Positions 3,029 to 25,956 of a stretch of DNA of 64,000 nt are shown here, in pieces (the stretch's first letter is position 1; each line of letters starts with the position of its first letter). Below the pieces are notes generated by a model. That model was not told where the DNA came from. It saw only the letters and a program-made list of their open reading frames with translations, and ran no database searches. This DNA is from the human T2T-CHM13v2.0 reference genome, Homo sapiens, in assembly GCF_009914755.1 (NCBI RefSeq), contig NC_060929.1. The stretch is one strand, 5' to 3'. The translations under genes and the position numbers were made by a program.

Positions 3029-4496
3029 GTCCCTGATTCTTTTCATATGGTAAAAGTAGTAGATCCTAAAGTCAAGGGAACCACAGTGATTTCAGCCTTT
3101 GGCTTTCATTGCCTTAAGTCAACTATGCAGTTATTTACCTGAGGATACTTCTGCCCAGGAGTGTTTTGTAGTTGAACAACATAATAGTGTTTTCCTCTAT
3201 TCAGCAACATTTTAAAATCTTCTTCAAGAGTTTAAGTTTACATTTTATTGTCATCTGCCTGGCAGCAGGCAGTGCAGGTGGCAAATGGACGGGAAATTTG
3301 ACAGCTGAGTTAATTAATAGATGGTAATTTGGAGTGTTGTCAAGCTGCCAGTGGGGATGAAGGTGCTTTGGATACAAGTATGCAAAGATGTTCTGCAAGG
3401 GTCAAAATATTTGTATTTCTCACATTACTTTGACTTTTTTTTTTATCTGGGCATCTATACCTAGGAAAATGTATTAAAATTAATCAGAGTTATTTCTAGT
3501 CATAGATGACTGGCATTTTCACATTTCTCAGTGTCTTCTTATCAACTTTTTTATGTGAGAGAACTTGTTGGAATAGAGCTTACATACTCCTTCAAAGACT
3601 TTCCTATTATTCCACAGATCTTTTAAGAGAGAAATGGACCTCCTTTATCTGCTTACTTACTTTCAGTTACCATTTTGAGCCAGGAAATACAGTTTCCTAT
3701 GTGGTCTAGATTTTTTGTTTCTCTTTGAAGTCCTTCTCCCTCCCCCACCTCCTTAGGCTTTCAACATGATTTTCCCATTAGTTATTATTAGATATTATTT
3801 TCCCATTAGTTCTTATTTATCCCCCTTCAAATTACCTCAGGTGGGATAGATAGACAGCTAGATGATAGCTAAAGGAAGATAGCTGGTTAAATTTAATAGA
3901 CAGAACCAAAGGTCCCCAGTGTTTCTTGCTCTTGGTGAATAAAGTAAAACATTTTGGAAGAAATTAACCATTTTGAAAACAATCTGTAAAGTGTTTTTAT
4001 ACACATAGTTAATTTTGATATTTGTCTACAGTGGCAATAGGGTGGCTATTCACAGTAAACAAAAGGCTGTGTTCTTCATTACCTCTACCAGAGATGTAAA
4101 ATCTACATTAGAACTGCAACAGTTCCTCTATCAAACACTAAGAGAGAATAGTCCCTATTGTCTCTCAATAATACTTTATGTATAGATGGTGGGTTGGCAT
4201 CATGTAAGCATTTGACTATTCCAAATGTTTAAATTAATGTTCATTTTTTTCCAAGACAGAGATGACTAAAATTAAAGAATAAAATAATGTGATTATTATT
4301 GATATTCTTATTTTTCACTCCATGTACTAAAGGAGTATCTAGCATTATGAAATTTAAATAAAACATTTTTAGGGAAAATATTTATGTATCTCCAAATGAA
4401 ATTTTGTATTTTATGTTTTAGAATTCAGTCAGTGACTCAATAAATCATTACGTAATATATGTTTGAGGCTTTACAATATTTTTTGAGATGTCCAGC

Positions 4497-21325: not shown

Positions 21326-22468
21326 TAATCATATGACCATCTCTATGGCTTTATAAAATTACTGGACAAAATCCATCATCCTCTTCTCATAAAAATAGTC
21401 AACAAAGTAGGAATAGAAGGAAATAATTTCAACATAACAAAGGCCACATATAAAATTTCAAAGCTAACATCACATTCAATGGTGAAAAGCTGAAAGATTC
21501 CTCTAAGATCAGGAACAAACCAAGTAAGCCCACTTTTGCTGCTTCTATTAAACATAGTTCTGAAAGTACTAATCAGAGTAATTGGGCAAGAAAAAAACAT
21601 AAAAACATCCAAATTGGAAAGAAAGGAGTAAAATTATCTCAATTCACAGATGGCATGACCTTATATGTAGACTCTACAATAAACATTTTAGAAATTAATA
21701 AATTCAGCAAAGTTGTAAGACACAAAATCAACATACAGAAATAAGTTGCATTTCTATCAATTACCAACAAATAATCCAAAAAGGAAATTGAGAAAATAAT
21801 CCCATTTACAATAGAATTAAACAGAATAAAATATTTAGAAATAAACTTAACCAAGGAGGTGAAAGAGACACCAAACTCTACAAAACATTGCTTAAAGAAA
21901 CTAAAGAAGACACAAATAAATGGAAAGGCTTTCCACATGAATGGATTGGAAGACTTAATATTGTGAAAATGTCCATAATACCAAAAATGATCTACAGATT
22001 CAATGTAATCCCTATCAAAATCACACTAGCATTTTTAACATAAATAGTAATATTAAAAATAGTAAAAATTTTTAATTCATATGGAGCCAGAAAAGAAGCT
22101 CGAATAGTCAAAATAACCTTCAAAAAGAACAAAATGAGAGATCTCACAATTTCTAATTTCAAAACATATGACGAATCTATGGTATTCAAACAGTATAGGA
22201 CTGGCATTAAAGCAGACATACAGACTAATGGAACAGAATATAGAGCCAGAAATAAAGTCACACATATGAGATCAAATGATCTTCAACAATGTTGCCAAGA
22301 CTACACAATGGGTAGGGAAAGTCTCTCCAAAAGGCAATGGAAAAACTTGATATCCACATGCAAAAGAAGGAAAAGATTTTTGTATCAACTCGAAATGGAT
22401 TGAGGACTTTAACAGAGGACCTAAAACTATAACACTCATACAAGCAAACAGAGAAAAGGCTGCATAAC

Positions 22469-22672
22469 TATATTAGTCAGGGTTCCCTAGAGGGACAGAT
22501 GTGTGTGTCTAATAGGATAGATGTGTGTGTGTGTCTGTGTGTGTGTATTTTAAGGGGAGTTTATTAAATATTAACTTACACAATCACAAGGTTCTCCAAT
22601 AGGCTGTCTGCAAGCTTGAGGAGAAAGGAGAGCCAGTCTGTCTCAAAACTGAAGAACTCGGAGTCTAATGTT
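22469..22672 (-). mobile_element. MLT2A (HERV-L) LTR, 3'-terminal ~200 bp only
   Basis: 'tatattagtcagggttccctagagggacaga...aataggatag...aaggggagtttatta...acaatcacaagg...aaaactgaagaactcggagtc' is the reverse complement of the MLT2A 3' end; minus-strand AATAAA at 22560-22565. Confidence 0.88.
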
Positions 22673-22897
22673 TCAAGACGGGTTGGGTGGGTACCCCACA
22701 CTGCCGCTGACGCCTTGCGCTCACTCCGCCATTCGCGTGCGTGGCTGAGAGACCCCCGGCCCCACTGCGTGACCCACCCATGTCGCACTGGGGACAGTTC
22801 GCCCCCCGCCTGTGAGCACGTTGGCCCTCACCCTCTTTGTGCCACCGTGGCTTTTGTGTTAGCCCCTAACTTGCTCAAGTGTTAGACTTCTTGGTCC
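22669..22897 (-). pseudogene. 28S rRNA fragment (3' end of D2 expansion segment plus adjacent core), circularly permuted
   Basis: Reverse complements match 28S landmarks ACCCACCCGACCCGTCTTGAAACA and CTGTCCCCAGTGCG (22669-22810), and GGACCAAGGAGTCTAACAC...CGTGGCGCAATGAAGGTGAAGGCC (22811-22897). Confidence 0.9.
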
Positions 22898-23998
22898 AGA
22901 AGTAAATAATTGAAGTTTGGGAACATCCGCCTAGATTTCAGAAGAAGTCCGGAAACACCTGGATGCCCAGGCAAAAGTTTGCTGCAGGGGCAGGGCCCTC
23001 ATGGAGAGCCACTGCTAGGGCAGTGCGGAAGGGAATGCAGGGCCAGAGCCCCCACACAGAGTCTCCACTGGGGCACTGCTTAGTGGAACTGCGAGGAGAG
23101 GGCCATCGTCTGCAGCACCCCAGAATGGTACATTCATTGAAACCTTGCACCATGCGCCTGAAAAAGCTGCAGACACTCAACGCCAGCCAGTGAAAGCAGC
23201 CAGAAGGGATTCTGTACCCTGCAAAGCCACAGGGGCAGAGCTGCCCAAGACCATGGGAACCCACCTTTTGCATCAGCCCGACCGGGATGTGAGACCTGGA
23301 GTCAAAGCAGATCATTGTGGAGCTTTAAAATTTGACTGCCCCGCTGGATTTTGGACTTGCATGGGTCCTATAACCCCTTTTTTTGGCCACTTTCTCCCAT
23401 TTGGAATGGCTTTATTTACCCAATACCTGTACCCCCACTGTATCTAGGATGTAATTAGCTTGCTTTTGATTTTACAGGCTCATAGGTGGAAGGACTTGCC
23501 ATGTCCCTTTGACATGGCAAAGATGAGACTTTGGACTGTGGACTTTGGGTTAATGCTGAAATGAGTTAAGACTTTGGGGGAAGGTTGGGAAGGCATGATT
23601 GGTTTTGAAATGTGAGGACATGAGAGTTGGAGGGGCCAGGGCCAGAATGGTATGGTTTGGCTGTGTCCCCACCCAAATCTCAACTTGGATTGTATCTCCC
23701 AGAATTCCCATGTGTTGTGGGAGGGACCCAGGAGGAGGTAATTGAATCATGAGGGCTGATCTTTCCCATGCTATTCTCGTGATAGTGAATAAGTCTCATG
23801 AGAGCTGATGCGTTTAGCAGGGGTTTCCCCTTTTGCTTCTTCATTTTTCTCTTGTGGCTGCCATGTAAGAAGTACCATTTGCCTCCCTCCATGATTCTGA
23901 GACCTCCCCAGCCATGTGGACTGTAAGTCCAATTACACCTCTTTTTGTTCCCAGTTTCGGTTATGTCTTTATCAACAGCATGAAAACAGACTAATACA
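22898..23998 (+). mobile_element. THE1A MaLR: 3' part of internal region plus complete 3' LTR (23648-23998)
   Basis: THE1-int 'gtttgggaacatccgcctagatttcag...'; LTR from 'tggtatggtttggctgtgtccccacccaaatctcaac' to 'ctttttgttcccagtttcgg...gactaataca'. Confidence 0.9.
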
Positions 23999-24444
23999 AT
24001 AACATTGGTCTTAGTAATGATTTCTTGGGCATCACACCAAAAGCACAGGCAACAAATGGGGAAATAGACAAGTGAGACTACATTAAATTGAAAAGCTTTT
24101 ACATAGCAAAAAGAAAAAGACAAGAAATCAACAAATGGAAAAGGCAACTTAGAGAGTGAGAAAATGTTTACAAAAAAACTATTAAAAATTTAATAGTATT
24201 CAATACATTCAAGGAACTCATATAACTGAATAGTAAAAAAAAAAAAAAAGTAAAAACAGAAAAGTACTTGAATAGACATTTCTCCAAAAAAAGGTTTAAA
24301 AAGTGCCCAAAATGTGTATGAAAAGGTGCTTAAGATAACTAATAATATAAGCAATACAAATCAAAACTACAATATATCACCATCTCATGCCTGTTAGAAT
24401 AGATATTATTTAAATTAAAAACAAAAGCAAAAACAAAAATAGAA

Positions 24445-24744
<300 letters not shown>

Positions 24745-25956
24745 CTAGAAATAAACATGTGTTGGCAAGGGTGTGGAGAAATTAGAACTCTTATGCAATG
24801 TTGATGGGAATATAAAATGGTTCAGGTGCTATGGAAATCAGTTTAGAGTTTCTTCCAAAAATTAAAAATAGAACTACCATGTGATACAGCAATTTCATTT
24901 TTGAATATTTATCTAAAATAATTAAAATTGGGATCTCAAAGGGATATTTGAACTTCCATCTTCATTGCAATGTTATTCTCAATACACAAGAGGTGGGAAC
25001 AATCTAAATGTTCATTGATGGATGAATGGATAAAGAAAATGTGGTATATAAACACAAACGAATATTACTCATCTATTAAAAAGAAGGAAATTCTTTTACA
25101 TACTACAACATAGAACAACCCTGAGGACACTGTGCTAAGTGAAATAAGTCATCGATAGATGGATAAATACTATATGATTCCATTTACATGGGGTATCTAA
25201 AATAGTTGAACTCATAGAAACAGAAAGTAGAATGGTGGTTTCTGGGTGCCGGGAAGAGGAGAGGTGCTGGGTATACAGTTTCAGTCATGCAAGATGGAAG
25301 AGTTTAAAGATTGTTTGTAGTTCATTTTATTTACAGTTTACAATACCATACTGTGCACTTAAAAGGTTGTTTTGAGGATAAATTTTATGTTGTATATTTT
25401 TGCCACAAATTTAAAAAATAAATACAAATTTGATTTTGGAACTTAAAAAAGAGAAAAGAAAATGTCTTTCTTAGAAAATACCTAGTAAAATATTTAGGAG
25501 TAAAGAGACATAATTTCGGTGACATGCTATCAAATGGTTCAACAATTAAATTAAATACCACTAATGTCTGTATGTGTGTGTGTGCACATGTGTGAAGAAA
25601 GAGATAATGATATAATAAGTGTGACAAAATTTTAATAATTAGAGAATTTAGGTGAAATATCTATGAGAGATAGTTGCATTACCTTTATAACTTTTCTGTG
25701 AGTTTTATTTATTTTTTCCAAACTAAGAAGTTAAATTCATGTTCTAAATACTGATATCTTGAGTCTACTTCTTGGTTTTGTCACTTAGGATGTGACATTG
25801 GGGAATTTATTTAAATTATTTAAACCTCAGATTTCTAATCTATAAAATAAAAGTAATATTGTACTGTCCTTTCAGTGTTGTGAGTAGTACATGAGACACT
25901 ATCAATAAATCTTTCATTGTATTGGGAATTAACAATCTCTCAAAAATACTAGCTGA

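What the first reader, a model, noticed from the sequence alone, without database searches (positions are those of the whole stretch)
22464..24003. One TSD-bounded chimeric integrant with two outward-facing LTR 3' ends from different families (HERV-L MLT2A and THE1A), bridged by 28S rRNA
Seen: the host L1 reads ...ctgc ATAAC [insert] ATAAC attggtc..., with ATAAC at 22464-22468 and 23999-24003. Removing the insert and one copy restores continuous L1 ORF2. The left end 'tatattagtc' is the reverse complement of an MLT2A LTR 3' end; the right end 'gactaataca' is a THE1A LTR 3' end. Neither element has its other terminus. Known: ERVL and MaLR insertions make 5-bp TSDs, and MaLRs lack pol and are thought to use ERVL machinery. 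Inference: the + strand is a nascent cDNA. It began as HERV-L minus strong-stop DNA (~200 nt, plausibly U5-R), switched onto 28S rRNA via TGTT microhomology (22669-22672), then onto a THE1A minus-strand cDNA and copied it to its U5 end. That gives a linear DNA with two U5 att sites that integrase inserted. This would be direct fossil evidence that HERV-L, THE1A and rRNA shared one particle.
Basis: partly seen in the sequence, partly recalled or inferred. Interest (0 to 1): 0.92.

Follow-up and report, generated by a model that had tools for sequence, protein, structure and literature searches.

The report
Chimeric HERV-L/28S/THE1 retroviral integrant
A 1,530-base insert in an old L1 element is a single fossil integration of a scrambled reverse-transcription product, made of an inverted piece of a HERV-L LTR, two antisense pieces of 28S ribosomal RNA and the 3' half of a THE1 element, which suggests that HERV-L and THE1 were copied in the same reverse-transcription complex.

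Summary
Window 22469-23998 is one insert flanked by a 5-bp duplication, ATAAC. In 6 of 6 related L1 copies the two flanks abut with exactly 5 bases shared.

Every base of the insert is assigned:
- The last ~200 nt of an MLT2A-type HERV-L LTR, reversed.
- 28S rRNA nt 1324->1161, antisense.
- 28S nt 1420->1326, antisense.
- 751 nt of THE1 internal sequence.
- A full 351-bp THE1 LTR.

Both ends of the insert are U5 termini. In proviral copies of both families this end sits next to a near-identical primer-binding site.

- The 28S part is circularly permuted. The second piece ends one base from where the first began.
- The HERV-L breakpoint lies about 60 nt short of the mapped transcription start, so this is not complete strong-stop DNA.
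- For the HERV-L cDNA end, the 28S entry site is the best-matching site among 2,801 tested.

Best reading (0.78): serial template switches during reverse transcription, then integrase insertion of a DNA with two U5 ends. The kind is known (LTR-mediated chimeric retroposition). This architecture is a new variant. Orthologous primate loci could not be checked.

The parts
22464..22468 (.). Left copy of the 5-bp target-site duplication ATAAC in the host L1 (3' part of ORF2, after the RT domain).
   Evidence: 6 of 6 related L1 copies carry one copy of this pentamer where the two flanks meet; in an in-window L1 the equivalent site lies about 620-650 nt past the end of the RVT_1 match.
22469..22673 (-). 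Last ~200 nt (partial R plus U5) of an MLT2A-type HERV-L LTR, reverse-complemented. The insert's left terminus is the LTR's U5 terminus, which reads ...GACTAATATA in LTR sense. The piece includes a (TG)n microsatellite at about 22500-22545 and an AATAAA (LTR sense) at about 22558-22563.
   Evidence: it matches positions 461->262 of a 462-bp LTR copy; the same LTR end is followed by a primer-binding site in L017, L032, L016 and L026; genomic copies run on past the breakpoint.
22669..22810 (-). 28S rRNA nt 1324->1161, antisense (end of the D2 expansion region). It overlaps the MLT2A piece by TGTTT (22669-22673).
   Evidence: 82.6% identity over aligned columns, 12 of 25 mismatches are CpG decay, and there are 23 gap columns.
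22803..22897 (-). 28S rRNA nt 1420->1326, antisense. It ends one nucleotide from where the first 28S piece began. The junction with the first piece lies in a C-rich run (about 22801-22810) where both pieces align.
   Evidence: 77% identity over 95 nt with no gaps.
22897..23647 (+). 3' 751 nt of THE1 internal sequence (positions 1193-1937 of the 2,286-bp element in L043). It shares a 1-nt overlap (C at 22897) with the 28S piece.
   Evidence: homology starts at 22897 in 20 of 29 copies, at 22878-22879 in 6 and at 22898-22901 in 3. Identity is 84-87%.
23648..23998 (+). Complete THE1-type LTR (351 bp), from TGGTATGGTTTGG... to ...GACTAATACA. The insert's right terminus is its U5 terminus.
   Evidence: in 18 of 19 complete elements this same LTR end is followed by a primer-binding site.
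23999..24003 (.). Right copy of the 5-bp target-site duplication ATAAC. The host L1 resumes here.

Best explanation
This is one aberrant reverse-transcription product that an ERV-L-type integrase inserted into an L1 in a simian ancestor.

Shown:
- The insert entered at a single site and made a 5-bp duplication, the same length this family makes.
- Both of its termini are U5 ends, the ends where tRNA-primed minus-strand DNA begins.
- Read 5'->3' on the window + strand, it has the polarity of HERV-L minus-strand DNA, then cDNA of 28S rRNA (two pieces), then THE1 plus-strand sequence running to the THE1 U5 end.

Inferred order of events:
1. Minus-strand DNA was primed on a HERV-L-type RNA. It copied U5 and most of R.
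2. About 60 nt before the RNA 5' end, its 3' end annealed to 28S rRNA at nt ~1320-1338, where the two sequences are unusually alike. It copied 28S down to about nt 1161, inside the very GC-rich D2 region.
3. It slipped back, through a C-rich match, to about nt 1420 of 28S. It copied down to nt 1326 and stopped one base from its first entry point.
4. The stalled end then paired, with only 1 nt of overlap, with THE1 minus-strand DNA that reached 751 nt into the internal region. The two minus-strand DNAs most simply primed each other at their 3' ends. That gives a fully double-stranded DNA with a U5 terminus at each end.
5. Integrase joined both U5 ends to the target.

The simplest reason for the stop in step 3 is that RNase H had already destroyed, or the first cDNA still covered, the template beyond that point, so the enzyme ran off an end.

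The model requires HERV-L RNA, 28S rRNA and THE1 cDNA in one reverse-transcription complex.
For: Single event:
- 6 of 6 related L1 copies show the flanks abutting with a 5-nt overlap.
- 11 of 19 complete THE1 elements have perfect 5-bp TSDs at the same kind of termini, and 2 more have 4 of 5.

Composition and ends:
- All 1,530 bases are assigned to five colinear segments.
- Both termini are U5 ends. A primer-binding site follows this LTR end in 4 of 26 MLT2A copies and in 18 of 19 THE1 elements.
- The two families' sites are nearly the same: TTGGTACCAGGAGTGG in L017 against TTGGTACCAGGAGTGGGG in L047.

28S bridge:
- Both 28S pieces are antisense, as cDNA of rRNA must be.
- Entry at nt 1324 and exit at nt 1326 abut.

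Junction 1 (HERV-L to 28S):
- Genomic MLT2A copies continue past the breakpoint.
- The real 28S acceptor site ranks 1st of 2,801 positions for 8 of 12 versions of the donor end, and within the top 7 for all 12.

Uniqueness: no other locus in the assembly spans the 28S junctions or carries the MLT2A/28S junction within 2 mismatches.

Timing: both families are simian-specific and therefore overlapped in time (PMC8559712 passages; PMC10735291 passages).

A second HERV-L/THE1 hybrid exists on another chromosome (L017+L075).

Precedent (abstracts and passages seen):
- Microsimilarity-guided template switching giving LTR-flanked chimeras (PMC5131818, sections 5-6).
- Complex LTR retrotransposon insertions made by template switching (PMC1950507, abstract).
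- Aberrant first-strand transfers with junctions inside R in HIV-1 (PMC12657518, passages).
Against: - The order of events cannot be observed. It is read from polarity and junction similarity.
- Junction 3 (28S to THE1) has only 1 nt of overlap. Its flanking similarity is weak: the real site ranks 7th to 307th of 2,280 in the 8 elements tested, and in 2 of 10 elements the site was not found.
- Junction 2 lies in a C-rich run and cannot be placed to the base.
- The acceptor ranking covered only 28S nt 1-2824 and no other cellular RNA. The donor endpoint was also fixed by the junction itself.
- The left terminus reads TA where TG is expected. At least 3 genomic copies share this variant.
- Rfam did not recognise the 28S pieces in the window. 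Their identity rests on blastn to rDNA at 71-77%.
- The empty-site evidence comes from paralogous L1 copies, not from orthologous loci.
They fit features given in PMC8559712 but were not tested against a repeat library.
Confidence: 0.78

Rival explanations
1. Two separate cDNA molecules were inserted together. One was a broken end of HERV-L DNA and the other a broken end of THE1 DNA. One integrase complex held both U5 ends and joined them to the staggered target cut. Host end-joining then closed the inner ends, with 28S-derived DNA captured as filler.
For: This also gives a 5-bp TSD and two U5 termini. End-joining uses microhomology, so the similarity at junction 1 does not exclude it. The weak junction 3 looks like simple end-joining. 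Two-donor concerted integration is a standard in vitro outcome (recalled, not checked here).
Against: It does not predict that both 28S pieces have cDNA polarity relative to the HERV-L minus strand (about a 1 in 4 chance). It does not predict that the exit from 28S abuts the entry point. It needs a double-stranded 28S DNA fragment of about 230 bp as filler, in two permuted pieces. It needs two independently broken viral DNAs in one integrase complex.
Confidence: 0.12
2. The present structure arose after integration. Ordinary MLT2A, THE1 and 28S-pseudogene insertions sat next to or inside one another, and later deletions, an inversion or gene conversion produced what is seen now. The ATAAC repeat is then either a leftover of one of them or chance.
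For: LTR elements are often rearranged. MLT2A LTRs lie within about 120 nt of THE1 elements in 2 of 29 THE1 loci examined (L067, L056), so the families do land near each other.
Against: The TSD directly abuts the terminus of a different family on each side. A TSD made by either element alone would need that element's other terminus at the far side (one search shows the normal pattern, TGATATGG...ACA). Deletions would have to end exactly at both termini. No base of the insert is unassigned and no L1 base is missing.
Confidence: 0.04
3. An L1-mediated (target-primed) chimeric retrocopy of the U6/L1 or 28S/L1 kind.
For: 28S/LINE-1 chimeric insertions exist (18 loci reported; bioRxiv 10.1101/2025.02.02.635956, passages). 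The host sequence is an L1.
Against: There is no poly(A) tail at either end. The TSD is 5 bp, not the longer L1 type. The host L1 is simply interrupted. Both termini are exact LTR ends, and the 28S is antisense and internal.
Confidence: 0.01

Closest known systems
LTR-mediated chimeric retroposition by microsimilarity-dependent template switching (Tan et al. 2016, PMC5131818; Ty1 and plant analogues, e.g. Sabot & Schulman 2007, PMC1950507)
   Same: Host RNA sequence is embedded between discontinuous LTR-retrotransposon sequence. There is similarity at the fusion points. More than two switches are possible. There are no L1 hallmarks.
   Different: The described cases keep one family, with a 5' LTR and a 3' LTR in the same orientation. 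The paper argues that both LTR ends must be present for integrase. Here the flanks come from two families, lie tail to tail, and both termini are U5 ends. The captured RNA is rRNA, antisense to the THE1 part, and permuted.
Aberrant first-strand transfer in retroviruses (junctions inside R or at the R 5' end; HIV-1 proviruses, PMC12657518)
   Same: Minus-strand DNA leaves its template within R and lands at a site of limited similarity.
   Different: In HIV-1 the acceptor is the viral RNA itself and the result is a deletion. Here the acceptor is 28S rRNA, and the product ends on another element's cDNA.
Canonical THE1 (MaLR) and HERV-L insertions
   Same: 5-bp TSD and the same terminal sequences. 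The LTR end is followed by a tRNA primer-binding site that the two families share.
   Different: Normal copies have two identical LTRs in direct orientation, running TG...CA from a U3 start to a U5 end. This insert has no U3 terminus at all.
[quoted passage not shown]
   Same: A 28S fragment of a few hundred nt is carried into the genome by a retroelement's reverse transcriptase.
   Different: Those are L1 products, mostly sense-oriented, and often start near 28S position 3636. This one comes from nt 1161-1420 and is integrase-inserted.

Membership tests
ERV-L/MaLR integrase-mediated insertion | A 5-bp target-site duplication directly flanks the element termini. | tested here: met
   ATAAC lies on both sides, and 6 of 6 paralogous L1 copies carry a single copy. 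Family control: 11 of 19 THE1 elements have a perfect 5-bp TSD.
ERV-L/MaLR integrase-mediated insertion | Termini read TG...CA, with a U3 start at one end and a U5 end at the other, on identical direct LTRs. | tested here: not met
   The right end is ...ACA. The left end is the reverse complement of a U5 end from another family and reads TA, not TG. There is no U3 terminus.
LTR-mediated chimeric retrocopy (template switching) | Host RNA copy flanked by discontinuous LTR-element sequence, not an insertion into a continuous element. | tested here: met
   The MLT2A piece stops at position 262 of a 462-bp LTR. The THE1 piece starts at position 1193 of 2,286. The flanks are not halves of one element.
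LTR-mediated chimeric retrocopy (template switching) | Microsimilarity at the fusion points. | tested here: met
   Junction 1: TGTTT plus flanking similarity, rank 1 of 2,801 for 8 of 12 donor versions. Junction 2: a C-rich overlap of a few nt. Junction 3: 1 nt, weak.
LTR-mediated chimeric retrocopy (template switching) | Both a 5' LTR and a 3' LTR of the mobilising element are present. | tested here: not met
   There is one full THE1 LTR and one inverted partial MLT2A LTR.
L1-mediated chimeric retrogene | Poly(A) tail, long TSD, and an L1 3' end as one partner. | tested here: not met
   no poly(A) at either terminus, a 5-bp TSD, and the L1 is only the interrupted host.
28S rRNA-derived sequence | Significant similarity to the LSU rRNA gene. 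| tested here: met
   blastn to an rDNA unit whose 28S was located by Rfam RF02543 gave E 3e-22 and 1e-16. Rfam run directly on the window found nothing.
MLT2A (HERV-L LTR) | Match to the curated MLT2A1/MLT2A2 consensus. | not testable with these tools
   No Dfam or RepeatMasker library was available. Indirect support: copies are about 460 bp with a TATA box, an AG-rich start region and a primer-binding site after the 3' end. This agrees with the description in PMC8559712.
THE1A subfamily | The THE1A-specific indels relative to THE1B (186ins, 204del, 226_235del, 303_312delinsTT; PMC10735291). | not tested
   No named consensus was on hand. The 351-bp LTR groups with the shorter copies (about 350 bp, 82-88% identity) rather than those of about 367-376 bp (70-78%). 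That is consistent with THE1A but not decisive.

The most novel reading that the evidence does not exclude
The locus, together with the chr10 hybrid (MLT2A LTR, shared primer-binding site, THE1 internal region, THE1 LTR), is sequence-level evidence of two things. First, THE1 RNA or cDNA and HERV-L RNA sat in the same reverse-transcription complex and exchanged strands repeatedly, which means THE1 was mobilised by HERV-L machinery. Second, that machinery's integrase could insert a DNA bearing two U5 ends in vivo. The near-perfect single turn through 28S nt 1161-1420 would then record either a template end made by RNase H or a small circular rRNA fragment used as template.
Probability: 0.55. Interest if true: 0.75.

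Novelty: new variant of a known kind. Interest (0 to 1): 0.62.

Why it matters
MaLR elements such as THE1 make up several percent of the human genome, yet they encode no polymerase or integrase. That they borrow ERV-L enzymes has rested on sequence kinship. A single integrant that joins HERV-L minus-strand DNA to THE1 cDNA, with the family's own 5-bp duplication, is a physical trace of the two being copied together.

The locus also preserves several things in one place:
- A premature, similarity-guided first-strand transfer onto ribosomal RNA.
- A second pass over the same rRNA stretch.
- An end-to-end join.
- Use of two U5 ends by an integrase in vivo.

It also gives a clear search image for a genome-wide survey: tail-to-tail LTR ends inside a 5-bp duplication.

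Tried and rejected
- Rfam scan of 21500-25000 at E<=1. It found no LSU rRNA match, only Alu/SRP-like hits downstream. The 28S identity had to come from the genome's own rDNA.
- L1 continuity from L1 copies inside the window. At 62-65% identity the flanks were only roughly contiguous (within about 2 nt). This was replaced by six closer copies from elsewhere in the genome.
- 'GGAGTCTAA' before the 28S piece looked like a sense-strand 28S fragment, which would suggest a fold-back. Rejected: MLT2A copies carry the same stretch.
- The idea that the left end is an LTR 5' (U3) end in forward orientation. Rejected by the primer-binding site that follows this end in LTR sense and by the LTR start TGTGATGG at the other end of the copies.
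- The breakpoint as the transcription start. Rejected.
- MFE fold of 28S nt 1065-1465.
- Pfam on read-through translations of the L1 flanks. This failed because of 18 stop codons. The ORF2 position was instead placed by homology to an in-window L1 with an RVT_1 match.
- Literature searches. They found no description of this locus, of HERV-L/THE1 chimeric integrants, or of two-U5 LTR integrants. These searches cover only the held open-access library.
Full report
**Observation**

The sequence reads ...ggctgcATAAC | tatattagtcagggtt ... cagactaataca | ATAACattggtctt....

L1 copies inside the window were too diverged to test whether the host L1 is continuous. At 62-65% identity the flanks were contiguous only to within about 2 nt. 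I therefore searched the window's own genome with the left flank and fetched six closer copies.

In all 6 of 6, the left-flank alignment ends at window 22468 and the right-flank alignment starts at 23999. The two alignments overlap by exactly 5 nt in the L1 copy. The copies read ...cATAACattggtcttggcaatgatttcttgg with one pentamer, ATAAC in 4 and ATGAC in 2. The insert is therefore bounded by a true 5-bp target-site duplication, and no L1 base is lost.

By homology to an in-window L1, the site lies about 620-650 nt past the end of the RVT_1 match, inside a 194-codon open stretch of that copy. That places it in the 3' part of ORF2.

**Anatomy**

Every base of 22469-23998 is assigned.

| Window | Content | Orientation |
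|---|---|---|
| 22469-22672 | MLT2A-type LTR, positions 461->262 of a 462-bp copy | reverse |
| 22669-22810 | 28S rRNA nt 1324->1161 | antisense |
| 22803-22897 | 28S rRNA nt 1420->1326 | antisense |
| 22897-23647 | THE1 internal sequence, positions 1193-1937 of a 2,286-bp element | forward |
| 23648-23998 | complete 351-bp THE1 LTR | forward |

The 28S orientation was fixed on an rDNA unit of the same genome with Rfam LSU_rRNA_eukarya, and the match was made by blastn (E 3e-22 and 1e-16). Rfam did not detect the decayed pieces in the window itself.

**Which ends are these?**

In LTR-sense orientation, the reverse complement of the window, 4 of the 26 MLT2A copies shown (L017, L032, L016, L026) continue after ...GACTAATACA/ATA with gatTTTGGTACCAGGAGTGG, a primer-binding site. 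Their other end starts TGTGATGG.

In 18 of 19 THE1 elements the 5' LTR's ...GACTAATACA is followed by gtaaaTTGGTACCAG..GAGTGGGG. The right terminus is therefore also a U5 end, and the two families share nearly the same primer-binding site. That this site matches tRNA-Leu is recalled, not tested.

As a control for the family's integration signature, 19 THE1 elements had two LTR hits. Of these, 11 have perfect 5-bp duplications, 2 have 4 of 5, and 6 have 3 or fewer, some through boundary errors or truncation. All normal copies run from TGATATGG... to ...ACA. The insert has no such 5' terminus.

**Junction 1 (HERV-L to 28S)**

Genomic MLT2A copies run on past the breakpoint with ...gggcaggaagcatccagc.... 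The exceptions among 30 rows were L031, L037 and the second L038 hit. The breakpoint is thus internal to the LTR.

The TATAAA box lies 94 nt upstream of it in LTR sense. PMC8559712 (passages seen) maps MLT2A1 start sites to consensus positions 205-215 of 444, in the AG-rich stretch after the TATA box. The breakpoint is therefore about 55-65 nt downstream of the start. The cDNA left its template before reaching strong stop.

The window shares TGTTT (22669-22673) between the two partners. Upstream of that, copies such as L011 and L019 read CTTGGAGTCCGATGTTT, against antisense 28S CTTGGTCCGTGTTT.

I scored the last 24 nt of the donor, anchored at its 3' end, against every position of antisense 28S nt 1-2824. 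The true acceptor site ranked:
- 1st of 2,801 for 8 of 12 donor versions;
- 2nd, 3rd and 4th for three others;
- 7th for the window's own decayed version.

Two limits apply. Only that part of 28S was tested, and the donor endpoint was given by the junction.

**The 28S pieces**

The first piece runs 1324->1161 and the second 1420->1326. In 28S the two are adjacent, with only nt 1325 unaccounted for, but in the insert their order is swapped. The second pass ends one base from where the first began.

The junction between the pieces lies in a C-rich run (about 22801-22810) where both align, and it cannot be placed to the base.

Identity to modern 28S is 82.6% for piece A. There, 12 of 25 mismatches are CpG decay and there are 23 gap columns, including a 15-nt gap in the D2 expansion. 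Identity is about 77% for piece B. This fits an insertion tens of millions of years old.

**Junction 3 (28S to THE1)**

Homology to 29 THE1 copies begins at:
- 22897 in 20 copies;
- 22878-22879 in 6 copies, through a weak similarity between ...gtgttgagcctgtgggtgcac and antisense 28S ...gtgttagactccttggtcc;
- 22898-22901 in 3 copies.

The overlap is one base. The real site ranks only 7th to 307th of 2,280 positions in the 8 elements tested, and in 2 of 10 elements the site was not found. This junction looks like an end-driven join rather than a similarity-guided one.

**Uniqueness**

Only the window itself spans 22640-22900 in the assembly (40 of 236 candidates were scored, and the rest of the list is rDNA). 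A pattern for the MLT2A/28S junction finds only the window at 0 mismatches. It also finds three ordinary-looking MLT2A copies at 2 mismatches, and none with the reversed control.

**Mechanism**

Read 5'->3' on the + strand, the insert runs in this order:
- HERV-L minus-strand DNA from its tRNA-primed start;
- cDNA of rRNA, in two pieces;
- THE1 plus-sense sequence up to the THE1 minus strand's own tRNA-primed start.

The simplest history is a nascent HERV-L minus strand that made three switches.
1. A premature, similarity-guided transfer onto 28S rRNA.
2. A backward slip within 28S.
3. A stop at the point already copied, followed by pairing with a THE1 minus-strand DNA.

For the stop in step 3, I infer a template end made by RNase H or by the earlier hybrid. 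A small circular rRNA fragment copied for one turn would fit equally well.

If the two minus strands primed each other at their 3' ends, the product is fully double-stranded with a U5 end on each side. That product is what the 5-bp duplication says integrase inserted. All of these steps are inferred. What is shown is the polarity, the junction similarity, the abutting entry and exit points, the termini and the duplication.

**Rivals**

- *Two separate viral DNA ends inserted together and closed by host end-joining with 28S filler (0.12).* This explains the termini and the duplication. It does not explain the uniform cDNA polarity or the abutting 28S coordinates.
- *Rearrangement after integration (0.04).* This needs deletions ending exactly at two termini of different families.
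- *An L1-mediated chimera (0.01).* This is contradicted by the absence of poly(A) and by the 5-bp duplication.

**Context**

MLT2A1 and MLT2A2 are simian-specific and are dated to 45-65 million years ago (PMC8559712, passages). The THE1 family is also simian-specific (PMC10735291, passages). The two families could therefore have been active together.

Precedents seen in the literature:
- Tan et al. 2016 describe LTR-mediated retroposition with microsimilarity at the switch points, including three human cases (PMC5131818; abstract and sections 5-6 read).
- A template-switching origin of complex LTR retrotransposon insertions is proposed for Triticeae (PMC1950507, abstract).
- Aberrant first-strand transfer with junctions inside R is documented in HIV-1 (PMC12657518, passages).
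- 28S/LINE-1 chimeras are known (bioRxiv 10.1101/2025.02.02.635956, passages).

None of my searches turned up a HERV-L/THE1 chimeric integrant or an LTR integrant with two U5 ends. Supplements were not consulted, and subscription papers are not in the library.

**A second hybrid**

Among the 29 MLT2A loci fetched, L017 (extended with L075; G000:C10:134444600-134449029, reverse strand) carries, all in one orientation:
- an MLT2A LTR lacking about 43 nt at its 5' end;
- the shared primer-binding site;
- a full THE1 internal region;
- a THE1 3' LTR.

That is what a plus-strand transfer between heterologous cDNAs through the shared primer-binding site would give. Recombination at the DNA level is not excluded. 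It is independent support for the idea that the two families exchanged strands.

**Verdict**

The kind of event, a template-switch chimera mobilised by LTR-element machinery, is known. This tail-to-tail, two-family, two-U5 architecture with a permuted rRNA bridge is a new variant. Interest 0.62.

Noticed in passing
L017 + L075 (G000:C10:134444600-134449029, reverse strand): A hybrid element in one orientation: an MLT2A LTR lacking about 43 nt at its 5' end, then the shared primer-binding site, a full THE1 internal region and a THE1 3' LTR. It fits a heterologous plus-strand transfer between HERV-L and THE1 cDNAs. DNA-level recombination at the shared site is not excluded. The TSD could not be checked because the 5' end is truncated.
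   Followed up: partly
L067 (MLT2A at 146-596, THE1 at 713-2992) and L056 (MLT2A 1-138 at 3111-3261, THE1 at 703-2989): MLT2A LTRs lie within about 120 nt of complete THE1 elements in 2 of 29 THE1 loci. That is more than I would expect from copy density and may reflect a shared target preference. No statistics were run.
   Followed up: no
L040-L068 and L016, L017, L026, L032: THE1 and HERV-L share almost the same primer-binding site (TTGGTACCAG..GAGTGG). In L017, where the MLT2A LTR is followed by THE1 internal sequence, the stretch just after it reads ...TTGCTGAAAAGATACC..., as in the THE1 copies.
   Followed up: partly
window 24446-24723: An Alu-like element just downstream in the host L1. 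Rfam gave Metazoa_SRP at 64.5 bits, below the gathering score, plus mir-1268 and mir-3135 look-alikes. An A-run lies at about 24236-24250.
   Followed up: no
window 22730-22770: Relative to modern human 28S, the first rRNA piece lacks 15, 2 and 5 nt inside the D2 expansion segment. These are either deletions in the insert or growth of the expansion segment since the insertion.
   Followed up: no
window 22500-22545: The (TG)n run in the MLT2A piece sits where other copies carry CA/TA microsatellites of very different length (up to about 27 repeats in L026). It lies just downstream (LTR sense) of the AATAAA, near the presumed R/U5 border.
   Followed up: no
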